DNA from: an uncultured Candidatus Saccharibacteria bacterium
GTDB taxonomy: Bacteria; Patescibacteriota; Saccharimonadia; CAZBQI01
NCBI GenBank assembly: GCA_964494105.1
Contig: CAZBQI010000005.1
Span: forward strand, 10,646-74,645
Reading direction: 5' to 3'
DNA length: 64,000 bases
Positions 13,968 through 25,603 of this stretch are shown piece after piece (within the stretch, counting starts at the first letter, position 1; each line of letters begins with the position of its first letter). The position numbers were made by a program, and so were the translations under genes. The notes below the pieces were generated by a model. That model saw only the letters and a program-made list of their open reading frames with translations. It did no database searches and was not told where the DNA came from.

Positions 13968-14049
13968 AAATTCATTATATCAAGGCAACTAACACAGATA
14001 CCGCAGCGTCATTATTCTTATACTGGCTGGTGGGAAAAATTAGCAACTA

Positions 14050-14123
14050 TGGCTTCGGGACTAGGATTCGAACCTAGATTGCTGGGACCAAAACCCAGTG
14101 TCCTACCATTAGACGATCCCGAA
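14050..14123 (-). tRNA. tRNA-Gln (anticodon TTG)
   Basis: The reverse complement folds as a cloverleaf: acceptor TTCGGGA/TCCCGAA, anticodon loop TTTTGGT, T-arm CTAGG-TTCGAAT-CCTAG, encoded CCA. Confidence 0.9.
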
Positions 14124-14239
14124 ATATTTTGTGTCGCCAACTATCTATTGTGCCAGACTATCAGAAAACTCTCTACCTTTAATTGAATATCCGGTTGGTT
14201 ATTTATACTTGTGTAAGCGAGCGTTATAATAGTGTGTAA

Positions 14240-14812
14240 ATGGAACACGAACAAAGTACCGAACAAATAGAAAAACAAGGTAGTTTTGGGGAGCCGACCA
14301 TTCCAAAACCAGTGGAAACACCACCTGAGCCACCAAAGCGCCGCAAACCTAAGCCACTGCGCATAGTTATTACAACCATTGCCCTCGGTGTCTCGTTTGG
14401 AGTTTTTGGTATTGTTATCTACTATCAGTTTTACAACCAAAGAAACCCGGCTAGCTACACGCCTCCTCCGGCTGTTTCACAAATTAGTGAATATCCGGAC
14501 ACCTATAAGCAGGCGAAGTTACCAGAATACCCAAATGCCGAGATTACCAGTTCTGGTCAAAAAACCGCCACACTTAATGACGGCATAAATGTTATTGTGC
14601 GAACTTACGATGACATTCCCACTGTCGCCAGCTTTTACGATAAGGCGCTTGTGGCTAATGACTGGAAACCCGACGATTCTATAACCAGCGATACGGCTGG
14701 AAAGGTTTACTACAAAACTTATATTAAAGGAGATGCTAAGTATACAATTACCGCTACCAGCTCAAATCAAGTCAGTGGCACCGATATTAGCATTAGCTAT
14801 GTAAAAAGGTAG
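14240..14812 (+). CDS. Hypothetical membrane-anchored protein with a Pro-rich linker and extracytoplasmic domain
   Basis: 190 aa; Pro-rich segment PKPVETPPEPPKRRKPKP, one TM helix, C-terminal beta-rich domain. Confidence 0.5.
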   Translation: MEHEQSTEQIEKQGSFGEPTIPKPVETPPEPPKRRKPKPLRIVITTIALGVSFGVFGIVIYYQFYNQRNPASYTPPPAVSQISEYPDTYKQAKLPEYPNAEITSSGQKTATLNDGINVIVRTYDDIPTVASFYDKALVANDWKPDDSITSDTAGKVYYKTYIKGDAKYTITATSSNQVSGTDISISYVKR

Positions 14813-14845
14813 TTGTTATACTGGATAAACACTTTAAAAATTCCA

Positions 14846-14998
14846 AAGTATCTAGAGTGCAGCGAGGGATCTAGCCTTACGACCTGCCGGCAACCAGCGA
14901 ACATGCGGGTGCCAATTCTAGCCCGTAACCAAACGGAAAAGATGCGCAATAAAGATAAAAAGCCGTCCTTTCCGTTAAGTAATAGAAAGGATTTTTTT
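14846..14998 (+). promoter_or_regulatory. SAM-I (S-box) riboswitch leader of metK, aptamer plus terminator expression platform
   Basis: ATCTAGAGTGCAGCGAGGGATCTAGCC...CCGGCAACC...GGGTGCCAATTCTAGC...GAAAAGATGCGC aligns block-for-block with the SAM-I consensus (AUCAAGAGNGGCNGAGGGA / GGCAACC / GGUGCCAAUUCC / GAAAGAUGAG). It is followed by hairpin TCCTTTC..GAAAGGA plus T7. Confidence 0.8.
14966..14998 (+). terminator. Intrinsic terminator of the SAM riboswitch expression platform; it sequesters the metK RBS
   Basis: tcctttc cgttaagtaata gaaagga ttttttt immediately 5' of the ATG at 14999; GAAAGGA doubles as the Shine-Dalgarno. Confidence 0.65.
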
Positions 14999-16102
14999 AT
15001 GCCAACTACAGTTTTTACCAGTGAGTCTGTCTGCGCTGGCCACCCAGATAAACTGTGCGATCAAATTAGCGATGCAATCTTGGACGCTGCAATTGCGCAA
15101 GACTCTTTTGCTCACGTAGCAGTCGAGACACTGGCCGCAAAAGACAGGCTAGTGCTGGCAGGGGAAATCACAACAACCGCCAAGCTAAACATTGAGGCTA
15201 TTGCACGTGAGGAAATTAAACGAATTGGCTACACTGAACCTAAATGGGGCTTTTCACATCATTCACCAATTTCTAACTATCTCCATCAGCAATCACCAGA
15301 AATCGCAGTTGGCGTTAAACTCGATGGAGCAGGTGACCAAGGAATGATGTTTGGTTTTGCTTGCAACGAAACATCCGAGCTAATGCCTGTTCCAATAATG
15401 TTGTCACATGCCTTAACTAAGCGCCTAGATGAAGTGAAAACTAATGAGCTCATGTATTTAAGACCAGATGGTAAAGCCCAAGTTAGCGTAGAGTACACTA
15501 ACGGCAAGCCAACCAGCGTCAAGCAGGCTGTTATTGCCGTACCGCACAGCAAACGAGTCGACCTAAATCAAGTAAAACGTGACGTGATGAATTATGTAGT
15601 TAAGCCGGTTTTGGATAAGTACAAATTTAAAATTAGCCCTAAAGACTTGATAGTAAACGGCACAGGTGTATGGCACATGCCGGGGCCTGCTAGTGACGCC
15701 GGACTAACCGGACGTAAAATTGCCGTTGATAGTTATGGTAGCTACGCCAGCCTTGGCGGAGGAGCATTTAGCGGCAAAGATCCAACTAAGGTTGACCGCT
15801 CCGGTGCATACGGCGCACGCTATGTAGCGAAAAACATAGTAGCTTCCGGACTAGCCAAAAAATGCGAGGTACGAGTGGCATACTACATAGGCGCCCACAA
15901 GCCAACTATGTGTGAAGTAGAAACTTTTGGCACAGAAACAAAAAGTCATCTGGCAATTCATAAATATATTAATAACTTACTCGATTTATCAGTACGTGGG
16001 ATAATCGAAACTCTAGATTTGCGTCGGCCCCTATACAAACGAACTGCTGCTTATGGTCATTTTGGTCGTAACGAATTCCCTTGGGAGCAAATAGCAAGTT
16101 AG
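14999..16102 (+). CDS. metK: S-adenosylmethionine synthetase. True start is the ATG at 14999; the TTG-start extension from 14813 is spurious.
   Basis: FTSESVCAGHPDKLCDQISDAILDA and GAGDQGMMFGFACNET are MetK signatures. The upstream extension is occupied by the riboswitch. Confidence 0.95.
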   Translation: MPTTVFTSESVCAGHPDKLCDQISDAILDAAIAQDSFAHVAVETLAAKDRLVLAGEITTTAKLNIEAIAREEIKRIGYTEPKWGFSHHSPISNYLHQQSPEIAVGVKLDGAGDQGMMFGFACNETSELMPVPIMLSHALTKRLDEVKTNELMYLRPDGKAQVSVEYTNGKPTSVKQAVIAVPHSKRVDLNQVKRDVMNYVVKPVLDKYKFKISPKDLIVNGTGVWHMPGPASDAGLTGRKIAVDSYGSYASLGGGAFSGKDPTKVDRSGAYGARYVAKNIVASGLAKKCEVRVAYYIGAHKPTMCEVETFGTETKSHLAIHKYINNLLDLSVRGIIETLDLRRPLYKRTAAYGHFGRNEFPWEQIAS

Positions 16103-17079
16103 TCTGAGTGTTGACTTTCTTTTTCGCGCCGACGTTCAGCCAGTTCACTTGAACGCGTCTCTGGCTCTAGCTGAATGTGGTAAGCCCCCGGCACTGCCTG
16201 TTTAATACTAGCTTTTATTTCATCTATTATTTCTTCAATTGAGTCTGTGTTAAGTCCGTCTTTAAAGTGTACATCTAGATTTATTAAGTATTTTTCTGGA
16301 CCAATAATCATTGTCCGTAAATCCGGAATATCTATAACAGCCGAGTGCGAAAGAGCTACTCTCTTAATTTTGGCTCTAATCGCAGGTGGTGCGCTGTGCC
16401 CAGTAATAAGATCTTTGATGCTTATCAAAAGAATGAATGCCAGCACTGCAAGCATGCATCCGATTAGAACGGCACCAATCCCATCAAAGCGTTGAATACC
16501 TGTAACCTGGTAGAGTATTAAGGCAACTAAACCAAGAGCCGCCGACATTGAGCCCATTAGGTCTAATACGTAAGTAATCTTAGTGGCAATATGCTGTGAT
16601 TTGAAGAATGCTTTCCAGATTTGTCTTAGCTTTTTGCCATCTAGAATTTTTACTGCACTCAAACGAAATGCATATAGGTTTGTACTCATCGCAATTATTA
16701 ACACAGCATACGCAATGTATAGGTGATTAATTGGTTCTGGATTTACAATATTCTGCCAACCAAAATAAATTGAAAAACTTGCTGTTATGGAAAAGATAAT
16801 GAAGGCCGAAATAAGTGCCCAAAAATAAAGCTCTTTTCCGTAGCCGAATGGATGATCAAGCGTAGAGTGTTTTTTCGCCCGCTTATGTCCAAGCATGAGC
16901 AAACAGACAGATGTAAAATCGGCAAAACCCTGCATAGCCTCGGCAAGCATAACAGTACTGCCGGTAAACACTGCTACGACAATATTCATTACTACGTCAC
17001 TTATGTCTACCAGGAGGGTAGTTATAAGCGTGCGGCTGGTAGATATTCCTGCAGTATTATCGGTAGTCATTTTGTTCAA
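16099..17079 (-). CDS. Cation diffusion facilitator (CDF) family metal efflux transporter
   Basis: 326 aa, six TM helices plus a C-terminal cytoplasmic domain; overlaps the metK stop. Confidence 0.75.
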   Translation of the reverse strand: MNKMTTDNTAGISTSRTLITTLLVDISDVVMNIVVAVFTGSTVMLAEAMQGFADFTSVCLLMLGHKRAKKHSTLDHPFGYGKELYFWALISAFIIFSITASFSIYFGWQNIVNPEPINHLYIAYAVLIIAMSTNLYAFRLSAVKILDGKKLRQIWKAFFKSQHIATKITYVLDLMGSMSAALGLVALILYQVTGIQRFDGIGAVLIGCMLAVLAFILLISIKDLITGHSAPPAIRAKIKRVALSHSAVIDIPDLRTMIIGPEKYLINLDVHFKDGLNTDSIEEIIDEIKASIKQAVPGAYHIQLEPETRSSELAERRREKESQHSD

Positions 17080-25283: not shown

Positions 25284-25544
25284 ATGGCAACTAAACTATA
25301 CATTGGTGGGTTAGCATATAGCACCACCGAAGACGCCCTAAAAGCTGCTTTCGAGCAAGCTGGTGGGGTAGCTTCTGTCAACATCATCAAAGATCGTGAC
25401 ACAGGAAACTCTAAAGGCTTTGGTTTTGTCGAAATGGAAAACGACGAAGCTGCAAAAAAAGCAATTGAGATGTTCAACGGTCAAGAAGTTGACGGCCGAC
25501 GCGTTCGCGTTGACGAAGCTCGCCCAATGGCACCTCGCGACTGA
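25284..25544 (+). CDS. RRM-type RNA-binding protein
   Basis: RNP-2 LYIGGL and RNP-1 KGFGFVEM; 86 aa. Confidence 0.9.
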   Translation: MATKLYIGGLAYSTTEDALKAAFEQAGGVASVNIIKDRDTGNSKGFGFVEMENDEAAKKAIEMFNGQEVDGRRVRVDEARPMAPRD

Positions 25545-25570: not shown

Positions 25571-25603
25571 GATACCGGATCTGTTTAGATCCGGTATTTT
25601 TTT
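25571..25603 (+). terminator. Rho-independent terminator downstream of the RRM gene
   Basis: ataccggatc tgttta gatccggtat followed by ttttttt. Confidence 0.75.

What the first reader, a model, noticed from the sequence alone, without database searches (positions are those of the whole stretch)
14813..15001. SAM-I riboswitch with an RBS-sequestering terminator hidden under a spurious metK start extension
The 186 nt between the stop of the upstream gene (14812) and the metK ATG (14999) align block-for-block with the S-box consensus (kink-turn GAGGGA, GGCAACC, GGUGCCAAUUC, 3' GAAAGAUG). They end in a hairpin (TCCTTTC...GAAAGGA) plus T7 whose 3' arm is the Shine-Dalgarno. The ORF track instead calls a TTG start at 14813 that would translate through the aptamer. 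This fixes the true metK start and shows SAM-dependent transcription attenuation in this small genome. The architecture is notable because the terminator T-tract directly abuts the start codon, so a single element imposes both transcriptional and translational control.
Basis: partly seen in the sequence, partly recalled or inferred. Interest (0 to 1): 0.55.

Follow-up and report, generated by a model that had tools for sequence, protein, structure and literature searches.

The report
SAM-I riboswitch upstream of metK
The 186 bases in front of the SAM synthetase gene (metK) are an ordinary SAM-sensing riboswitch, and its shut-off hairpin both resembles a transcription terminator and hides the ribosome-binding site, a compact design that has been described before.

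Summary
Window 14845-14948 (+) matches Rfam RF00162 (SAM-I) at 48.0 bits (gathering score 44.4, E 6.6e-8). P1-P4 and the pseudoknot covary across 11 related leaders. The true metK start is ATG 14999. The TTG at 14813 is only the first start codon after an in-frame stop, and it lies in a promoter-like box. The hairpin UCCUUUC(14966-72)/GAAAGGA(14985-91), U7 and AUG are present as described.

Five Saccharibacteria-like relatives keep the same arms with different loops. Their SAM-I/IV-bearing cousins use a compensated CCUCUC/GAGAGG version. The 5' arm can instead pair with the aptamer's 3' end (14932-14947), which is a classic antiterminator/anti-sequestor.

One modest addition: 13 of 15 leaders in this metK clade, counting the window, have the hairpin within 6 nt of the start codon. 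Only 1 of 65 more distant leaders has it within 10 nt.

Termination itself is inferred. The stem is weak (-7 to -12 kcal/mol). Verdict: a real, correctly read, ordinary riboswitch and a new member of a known kind. Interest is low.

The parts
14814..14822 (+). Promoter-like extended -10 box, TGTTATACT (inferred). The TTG 'start codon' at 14813-14815 overlaps it.
   Evidence: The same box sits at the same distance upstream of P1 in relatives: L005 TGCTATAGT, L006 TGCTATACT, L007 TGCTACAAT, L085 TGATATATT. Not called by the -35/-10 scan. The transcription start site (expected near 14829) is inferred, not measured.
14845..14948 (+). SAM-I (S-box) aptamer. P1 is 14848-14853 with 14940-14945. P2 with its kink-turn is 14857-14888. 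P3 is 14889-14913. P4 is 14923-14926 with 14933-14936. The pseudoknot is CUAG 14871-14874 with CUAG 14918-14921.
   Evidence: RF00162 at 48.0 bits (gathering score 44.4), E 6.6e-8. The MFE fold of the aptamer alone reproduces P1-P4. Covariation on alignment A1: 86% of cells paired against 74% in shuffles, 20 pairs with changes on both sides, pseudoknot 100% paired with 3 of 4 pairs covarying.
14932..14947 (+). 5' strand of the antiterminator/anti-sequestor. It is the 3' side of P4, J4/1 and the 3' side of P1 (AACGGAAA.GAUG.GC).
   Evidence: Pairs with 14962-14976 in the MFE fold of 14925-15001 (-16.8 kcal/mol, z -3.6). This pairing is the MFE state of the growing transcript from 14978 to 14998. 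The same partner switch is seen in L005, L006, L007, L085 and L087.
14962..14976 (+). 3' strand of the antiterminator (GCCGUC.CUUUCCGUU). It overlaps the 5' arm of the terminator/sequestor, UCCUUUC 14966-14972.
14965..14992 (+). Terminator/SD-sequestor hairpin. The main stem is GUCCUUUC (14965-14972) with GAAAGGAU (14985-14992). An inner 3-bp stem is 14974-14976 with 14981-14983, with an AAGU loop. The 3' arm GAAAGGA (14985-14991) is the Shine-Dalgarno.
   Evidence: The arms are invariant and the loops differ in five relatives. The SAM-I/IV relatives use compensated CCUCUC/GAGAGG arms.
14992..14998 (+). U7 tract. It is both the terminator tail and the 7-nt SD-to-AUG spacer.
   Evidence: It is the only T-run longer than 2 among 26 SD-to-start spacers found in the window. 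T-rich tracts occupy the same place in 12 relatives.
14955..15000 (+). Extended OFF-state helix. AUAAAAAG (14955-14962) pairs with UUUUUUAU (14993-15000), so the spacer and the first two bases of the AUG are also paired.
   Evidence: MFE and centroid fold of 14955-15001, -12.2 kcal/mol, z -4.8. The A-tract is not conserved in relatives, so this extension is specific to the window.
14999..16102 (+). metK (S-adenosylmethionine synthetase, 367 aa), the regulated gene.
   Evidence: Pfam PF00438, PF02772 and PF02773, E 1e-35 to 2e-59, with the N-domain aligned from residue 4. The identical 367-aa product was called independently on a Logan contig.

Best explanation
This is a SAM-I (S-box) OFF riboswitch in the metK leader.

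Low SAM (ON state): the 3' part of the aptamer (3' strands of P4 and P1, 14932-14947) pairs with 14962-14976. That keeps the UCCUUUC arm busy, so no hairpin forms, RNA polymerase reads on, and the Shine-Dalgarno GAAAGGA is free.

High SAM (OFF state): ligand binding locks P1 and P4 and releases UCCUUUC to pair with GAAAGGA. The resulting hairpin is followed directly by U7 and the AUG. It can therefore act as an intrinsic terminator. In any transcript that escapes termination it also buries the SD, and in this window the spacer and the AU of the AUG as well. The net effect is feedback repression of SAM synthetase by SAM.

What is shown by computation: the aptamer's identity, its covarying structure, the two mutually exclusive pairings, their conservation in relatives, and the true start codon.

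What is inferred: SAM binding, actual termination at the U-tract, the relative weight of transcriptional and translational control, and the promoter.

Sub-confidences: SAM-I riboswitch controlling metK 0.95; OFF logic with SD sequestration 0.8; a real contribution from intrinsic termination about 0.6.
For: - Aptamer: RF00162 at 48.0 bits, above the gathering score of 44.4, E 6.6e-8, and the only such hit in the window.
- Structure: P1-P4 and the pseudoknot covary.
- Conserved core: the SAM-I core positions are invariant across the 11 aligned leaders, including the window (A6 U7, G11 A12 G13, GCAACC, GGUG, GAU).
- Context: the gene downstream is metK.
- Hairpin: z -4.8.
- Switching: the antiterminator is the MFE state of the nascent transcript up to 14998 (-39.2 kcal/mol). 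Aptamer plus terminator is the MFE of the full leader (-42.1). The two states are close in energy, as expected for a switch.
- Conservation of the switch: in all six SAM-I leaders of the clade, the 5' arm pairs with the aptamer's GGAAAGA when the SD arm is kept free.
- Conservation of the hairpin: hairpin, T-tract and ATG are conserved with variable loops, and with compensatory arm changes in the SAM-I/IV relatives.
- U-tract: the T7 spacer is unique among 26 SD-to-start pairs in the window.
- Termination in this genome: a textbook terminator lies at 25573-25603, 29 nt after a gene end.
- Precedent: this category of platform is described in PMC2258182.
Against: - The Rfam score is only 3.6 bits above threshold, and the outer three P1 pairs of the model are mismatched. 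P1 is 5-6 bp.
- The hairpin is weak for a terminator: 7-8 bp with 3 G-C pairs, a 12-nt loop region, and -7.3 to -8.7 kcal/mol without the A/U extension.
- The tool's terminator scan did not list the hairpin, because its loop is longer than 8 nt.
- The hairpin arms are invariant within the SAM-I group. Covariation in the platform therefore comes only from comparison with the SAM-I/IV group.
- There are no expression, binding or termination data of any kind.
Confidence: 0.8

Rival explanations
1. Translation-only riboswitch. The hairpin is purely an SD/AUG sequestor that re-equilibrates with SAM on the full-length mRNA. The U-run is just an A/U-rich SD-to-AUG spacer and does not terminate transcription.
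For: - The stem is weak, with a large loop, and the terminator scan does not call it.
- The OFF helix in the window extends over the spacer and the AU of the AUG, which only matters for translation.
- Some relatives have interrupted or short T-tracts: L005 and L007 TATTTTT, L084 TTTT, L086 CTTTGTTGTATTT.
- L004 in the same clade appears to bury its SD directly in the aptamer's 3' end, with no terminator.
Against: - A run of 7 T occurs in none of the other 25 SD-to-start spacers in the window.
- T-rich tracts immediately 3' of the stem recur in 12 relatives across two aptamer classes.
- L003 keeps the same hairpin plus T7 about 120 nt away from its ATG, where it cannot be a sequestor.
- The genome has at least one canonical intrinsic terminator.
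Confidence: 0.25
2. Transcription-only attenuator. The SD overlap is a by-product of intergenic compaction and adds no regulation, because terminated transcripts lack the ORF anyway.
For: The classic S-box mechanism in Bacillota is termination/antitermination (established knowledge: Grundy & Henkin 1998; summarised in PMC2258182). The antiterminator geometry here is the classic one.
Against: A weak terminator implies substantial read-through. Read-through RNA with the hairpin formed would have its SD paired. The SD-in-3'-arm arrangement is kept in 13 of 15 leaders of the clade, counting the window, against 1 of 65 more distant leaders. That suggests selection rather than accident, although compaction alone could also produce the pattern.
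Confidence: 0.1
3. Decayed or non-functional aptamer relic that no longer binds SAM.
For: The Rfam score is near threshold and the base of P1 is mismatched. Relatives score 36.8-56.8 bits, and some fall below the gathering score.
Against: All invariant core positions are intact. Helices are maintained by compensatory changes across the clade. The platform with alternative pairings is conserved. Low scores are a clade-wide property of divergent but conserved sequences.
Confidence: 0.03
4. MetK really starts at TTG 14813 and carries a 62-aa N-terminal extension translated through this region.
For: The frame is open from 14813 to 14999.
Against: - The Pfam N-domain starts at residue 4 of the ATG-14999 protein.
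- An independent gene call gives 367 aa.
- Five relatives have in-frame stops 21-102 nt upstream of their ATG.
- The region is a covarying structured RNA.
- The TTG overlaps the conserved promoter-like box and has no properly spaced SD.
Confidence: 0.01

Closest known systems
SAM-I / S-box riboswitch (Rfam RF00162), e.g. the Bacillus subtilis metK (metK/yitJ-type) leaders
   Same: Four-way junction aptamer with a kink-turn in P2 and a P2-loop/J3-4 pseudoknot. Conserved core. Located upstream of a methionine/SAM gene. OFF logic, in which the 3' strand of P1 is shared with an antiterminator that competes with a downstream hairpin plus U-tract.
   Different: In 64 of the 65 more distant SAM-I metK leaders surveyed (mostly Bacillota and Chloroflexota), the terminator lies 18-305 nt upstream of the start codon and the SD is separate. 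Here the gap is the U-tract itself. P1 is short (5-6 bp), and the Rfam score is low, as it is for the clade in general (37-57 bits).
'Dual expression platform' riboswitches (Barrick & Breaker 2007, PMC2258182; first noted for TPP riboswitches by Rodionov et al. 2002, as cited there)
   Same: [quoted passage not shown] Their operational criterion, at most 10 nt between hairpin and start codon, is met (7 nt).
   Different: Nothing in kind. The additions here are the taxonomic setting (Saccharibacteria-like Patescibacteria) and the near-fixation of this design in one metK clade.
SAM-I/IV riboswitch (Rfam RF01725)
   Same: Same clan and the same metK context. The closest metK relatives L004, L083, L088 and L090 carry RF01725 hits above the gathering score (46.2, 48.0, 53.0 and 42.8 bits against 41.1). 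L082 scores 40.0, just below it. L082, L083, L088 and L090 carry the same hairpin/U-tract/ATG platform, built on a CCUCUC/GAGAGG stem. L004 instead has the aptamer overlapping its start codon, with no terminator hairpin.
   Different: The window's aptamer has the full SAM-I P2 kink-turn and a P4 hairpin, and its best match is RF00162, not RF01725.

Membership tests
SAM-I riboswitch (RF00162) | Covariance-model score at or above the curated gathering threshold, over the full model length | tested here: met
   48.0 bits against 44.4, E 6.6e-8, model positions 1-108 of 108. The margin is small (3.6 bits).
SAM-I riboswitch (RF00162) | Four helices P1-P4 around a four-way junction, supported by compensatory changes | tested here: met
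   On the 11-sequence alignment A1: 86.3% of cells paired against 74.2% in shuffles (0 of 500 shuffles as high) and 37-43% when partners are slid. 20 of 32 pairs have changes on both sides. Caveat: the structure was written from the window sequence.
SAM-I riboswitch (RF00162) | Pseudoknot between the P2 loop and J3/4 | tested here: met
   CUAG 14871-14874 pairs with CUAG 14918-14921. It is 100% paired in the 11 sequences. Three of its 4 pairs covary (CUAG/CUAG, UCGG/CCGA, CCGG/CCGG, UGGG/CCUA, helix 4).
SAM-I riboswitch (RF00162) | Conserved core and kink-turn nucleotides (J1/2 AGAG, GA of the k-turn, GCAACC with a bulged A, GGUGC, 3' GAU of P1) | tested here: met
   Invariant columns of A1 include A6 T7 G11 A12 G13 A21 G22 G24 A25 A38 C47 A48 A49 C50 C51 G64 G65 T66 G67 G97 A98 T99, all present in the window. 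Their roles in ligand contact are taken from established structural knowledge, not tested here.
SAM-I riboswitch (RF00162) | Specific binding of S-adenosylmethionine | not testable with these tools
   Needs in-line probing, ITC or equilibrium dialysis.
SAM-I riboswitch (RF00162) | Location in the 5' leader of a sulfur/methionine/SAM metabolism gene, on the same strand | tested here: met
   The aptamer ends 50 nt before the metK ATG. metK is identified by three Pfam domains.
Dual (terminator + RBS-sequestering) expression platform, sensu Barrick & Breaker 2007 | Terminator-like hairpin plus U-tract, with at most 10 nt between hairpin and start codon and the RBS in the 3' side of the stem | tested here: met
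   The stem ends at 14991/14992. U7 is 14992-14998 and the ATG is at 14999. GAAAGGA forms the 3' arm. I used my own hairpin scan, not Rnall with their thresholds.
Dual (terminator + RBS-sequestering) expression platform, sensu Barrick & Breaker 2007 | Mutually exclusive antiterminator pairing that involves the aptamer's switching helix | tested here: met
   14932-14947 pairs with 14962-14976. This is the MFE of nascent transcripts. The same switch is conserved in five relatives.
Intrinsic (Rho-independent) terminator | Stable G+C-rich stem with a short loop, followed directly by a U-tract, and causing transcript release | tested here: inconclusive
   The U7 is perfect, but the stem has only 3 G-C pairs in 7-8 bp and a 12-nt loop region (-7.3 to -8.7 kcal/mol; -12.2 with the A/U extension). 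The tool's scan did not call it. Transcript release is not testable here.

The most novel reading that the evidence does not exclude
In one Patescibacteria clade (Saccharibacteria-like and neighbouring lineages), the metK leader has a nearly fixed ultra-compact design: an SD-containing terminator hairpin whose U-tract is the SD-to-AUG spacer. This design persists while the sensor in front of it changes between SAM-I, SAM-I/IV and divergent forms that Rfam does not detect. L084 looks like an intermediate, with a SAM-I aptamer on the SAM-I/IV-type promoter and platform. If so, this would be a natural series documenting aptamer-class turnover on a conserved expression platform. It would also show genome reduction selecting for one element that controls both transcription and translation.
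Probability: 0.35. Interest if true: 0.45.

Novelty: new member of a known kind. Interest (0 to 1): 0.2.

Why it matters
- It fixes the metK start at 14999 (367 aa) and removes a false 62-aa extension.
- It shows that a bacterium from a lineage with reduced genomes and little-studied regulation keeps RNA-based feedback control of SAM synthesis.
- The clade-wide compact platform is a small but clean example of regulatory economy.
- Practically, riboswitches have been proposed as tools for controlling gene expression in Patescibacteria (PMC11665869). A native leader that works in these cells could be a useful scaffold.
- None of this changes how SAM-I riboswitches are understood.

Tried and rejected
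- **N-terminally extended MetK from TTG 14813.** Rejected.
- **Generic -35/-10 and terminator scan of 14000-16400.** It found neither the leader's promoter nor the hairpin, because the scan's loop limit is 8 nt. This does not count as evidence against either.
- **Unconstrained MFE folding of the whole leader from 14840.** It mis-folds P1 and J3/4 and has an unremarkable z-score of -1.6. The aptamer alone also has z -1.0. Thermodynamic stability alone does not identify the aptamer; the covariance model and covariation do.
- **My first forced-antiterminator calculation.** It used coordinates shifted by one base (the -26.4 line) and should be ignored. The unconstrained nascent-transcript folds and one search give the correct picture.
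- **My permissive genome-wide terminator scan.** It gave 52 hits against 14-27 in shuffles, so it is too noisy to estimate terminator usage. I kept only the textbook case at 25573-25603.
- **An alternative -10 (AAAAAT, 14836-14841).** It would start the transcript at P1. I judged it less likely, because in L006 it would truncate P1 (reasoning).
- **Literature searches for SAM riboswitches in Patescibacteria/CPR.** They found nothing specific.
- **Searches for close relatives.** The genome and metagenome scans found no close relative of the window organism; the best metK identity is 64-67%. The exact protein occurs on only one short Logan contig, from run SRR30303755.

Full report
**1. Observation**

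The upstream ORF (14240-14812, 190 aa, no Pfam family) ends with TAG at 14810-14812. The metK ATG is at 14999. The 186 nt in between contain GAGGGA (14864-69), GGCAACC (14889-95), GGTGCCAATTC (14908-18) and GGAAAAGATG (14935-44; four A, not three). They end in TCCTTTC (14966-72), 12 nt, GAAAGGA (14985-91), T7 (14992-98) and ATG.

A scan of the whole window on both strands against all 4227 Rfam families gives one riboswitch hit. It is RF00162 (SAM-I) at 14845-14948 (+): 48.0 bits against a gathering score of 44.4, E 6.6e-8, full model length. The margin over threshold is small, and the outer three pairs of the model's P1 are mismatched, leaving a 5-6 bp P1 (GUAUC(U)/(A)GAUGC). The hairpin region is far more stable than shuffled sequence (-12.2 against -3.85 +/- 1.74 kcal/mol, z -4.8).

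**2. The start codon**

The ORF listing reports a 429-aa ORF from TTG 14813. That tool simply takes the first start codon after a stop. Four results fix the start at ATG 14999.
- The ATG-14999 protein (367 aa) has the three SAM-synthetase Pfam domains, with the N-domain aligned from residue 4 to profile position 2.
- The same 367-aa product was called independently on a public contig.
- Its N-terminus (MPTTVFTSESVCAGHPDK) lines up with relatives.
- Five relatives have in-frame stop codons 21-102 nt upstream of their ATG, inside the leader.

The open frame through the window's leader is therefore a coincidence. The TTG also overlaps a conserved promoter-like box (see section 7).

**3. Relatives**

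The closest metK genes in a species-level genome collection and in JGI metagenomes are only 59-67% identical. Those with names are Patescibacteria MAGs (Saccharibacteria, Daviesbacteria, 'Patescibacteria group'). The window shares a minus-strand tRNA-Gln upstream of the leader with a Saccharibacteria MAG (L005). The affiliation with Saccharibacteria-like Patescibacteria is an inference from these matches.

Rfam finds SAM-I in front of metK in L005 and L006 and in L085. L007, L084 and L087 score just below the gathering score. It finds SAM-I/IV (RF01725) above the gathering score in L004, L083, L088 and L090, and just below it in L082 (40.0 against 41.1).

**4. Structure**

I aligned 11 aptamers: the window, six from its clade, three from other Patescibacteria and one Acetivibrio. 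On this alignment the SAM-I structure, written from the window sequence, is paired in 86.3% of cells. Column shuffles give 74.2% (0 of 500 as high), and sliding the 3' partners gives 37-43%. Twenty of 32 pairs change on both sides.

The P2-loop/J3-4 pseudoknot (CUAG 14871-74 with CUAG 14918-21) is paired in all sequences. It covaries as CUAG/CUAG, UCGG/CCGA, CCGG/CCGG and UGGG/CCUA. The core positions that are invariant across the alignment are all present in the window.

A clade-trained covariance model finds no second copy in the window.

**5. Expression platform**

Two mutually exclusive pairings exist.

- **OFF.** GUCCUUUC (14965-72) pairs with GAAAGGAU (14985-92). There is an inner 3-bp stem. 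In this window only, AUAAAAAG (14955-62) also pairs with UUUUUUAU (14993-15000). The SD, the spacer and the first two bases of the AUG are then all paired.
- **ON.** AACGGAAA.GAUG.GC (14932-47, the 3' strands of P4 and P1) pairs with GCCGUC.CUUUCCGUU (14962-76).

Folding the growing transcript shows the expected order of events. The aptamer is the MFE structure up to 14960. The antiterminator is the MFE from 14978 to 14998 (-39.2 kcal/mol). Aptamer plus terminator is the MFE of the complete leader (-42.1). The two states are close in energy, as a ligand-tipped switch requires. In all six SAM-I leaders of the clade, holding the SD arm single-stranded sends the 5' arm to the aptamer's conserved GGAAAGA segment.

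**6. Is the U-tract a terminator tail or just a spacer?**

For a terminator:
- Among 26 SD-to-start pairs I could identify in the window, no other spacer has a T-run longer than 2.
- The hairpin plus T-rich tract plus ATG recurs in 12 relatives. It has invariant arms and different loops within the SAM-I group, and compensated arms (CCUCUC/GAGAGG) in the SAM-I/IV group.
- L003 has the same hairpin plus T7 about 120 nt before its ATG, where it can only be a terminator.
- The window contains a textbook terminator after a gene end, at 25573-25603.

Against:
- The stem is weak (3 G-C pairs, a large loop, -7.3 to -8.7 kcal/mol without the A/U extension).
- The tool's scan does not call it.
- Some relatives have short or interrupted T-tracts.

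I put a real contribution from termination at about 0.6 and SD sequestration at about 0.8.

**7. Promoter (inferred)**

An extended -10-like box, TGnTAnAnT, lies about 25-35 nt upstream of P1. It is present in the window (TGTTATACT, 14814-22) and in L005, L006, L007 and L085. If it is used, transcription starts near 14829, downstream of the TTG at 14813.

**8. Comparison with what is known**

The aptamer is a member of SAM-I. The platform is the 'dual expression platform' that Barrick & Breaker (2007) describe in so many words. Their criterion is at most 10 nt between terminator hairpin and start codon (PMC2258182).

What I can add is a survey of 80 SAM-clan metK leaders fetched here.
- Of the 15 leaders with at least 59% metK identity, counting the window, 13 have the hairpin within 6 nt of the start codon.
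- Of the 65 more distant ones (mostly Bacillota and Chloroflexota, plus Gracilibacteria and Peregrinibacteria), only 1 has it within 10 nt. The rest have gaps of 18-305 nt.

Start codons and hairpins in this survey were assigned by my own heuristics, so the numbers are approximate. I found no paper on SAM riboswitches in Patescibacteria in the searchable library.

**9. Verdict**

This is a real and correctly interpreted SAM-I riboswitch controlling metK, with a known type of combined terminator/SD-sequestor platform. It is a new member of a known kind. It is useful for annotation and mildly interesting for its clade-wide compact design, but it would not surprise a specialist.

Noticed in passing
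window 14814-14841; L005 ~1283-1310, L006 ~1256-1282, L007 ~1297-1325, L085 ~755-785: Two conserved leader motifs lie upstream of P1 in the SAM-I group. The first is an extended -10-like box, TGnTAnAnT (window TGTTATACT). About 10-13 nt further on is a TTTAACAAT-like motif (window TTTAAAAAT, 14833-14841), whose role is unknown. It could be part of the 5' leader or an alternative -10. The SAM-I/IV relatives instead show TTGaCA-17-TTTAAT ending 8-9 nt before P1.
   Followed up: partly
L002 1344-1428, L003 1219-1334, L086 858-937: These metK leaders look like SAM-I/IV-type aptamers by eye (ATCAAGAG...GGCAACC...GGTGC). They get 27-33 bits from my clade model, but no Rfam family reaches E <= 0.01 on them. 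They may be divergent SAM-clan aptamers that current models miss.
   Followed up: partly
L084 852-1000: This leader has a SAM-I aptamer (41.4 bits in Rfam, 68.5 in the clade model) combined with the promoter (TTTAAT) and the CCUCUC/GGGAGG platform typical of the SAM-I/IV group. It suggests that aptamer class changes within one conserved leader design.
   Followed up: no
L004 1392-1488; L003 ~1340-1500: There are two exceptions in the clade. In L004 the SAM-I/IV hit runs over the metK start, so the SD lies inside the aptamer's 3' end and there is no terminator. In L003 the terminator sits about 120 nt upstream of the ATG.
   Followed up: no
window 14050-14123 (-) and L005 1097-1170 (-): A tRNA-Gln on the opposite strand lies upstream of the metK leader in both the window (anticodon TTG) and a Saccharibacteria MAG (anticodon CTG). 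In the window, a 190-aa ORF with no Pfam family (14240-14812) sits between the tRNA and the leader.
   Followed up: partly
window 16099-16102: metK (stop at 16100-16102) and the convergent cation-efflux gene (16099-17079, minus strand; PF01545 and PF16916) overlap by 4 nt at their 3' ends. That leaves no room for a terminator between them.
   Followed up: no
window 25573-25603 (+): A textbook intrinsic terminator, TACCGGATCTGTTTAGATCCGGTA plus T7 (-14.7 kcal/mol), lies 29 nt after the end of an 86-aa ORF (25284-25544).
   Followed up: partly
window 14966-14972: The sequestor arm UCCUUUC is the sequence expected for the 3' tail of a Bacillus-type 16S rRNA (CCUCCUUUCU, from memory). It would then be an exact anti-SD mimic. 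The 16S gene is not in the window, so this could not be checked.
   Followed up: no
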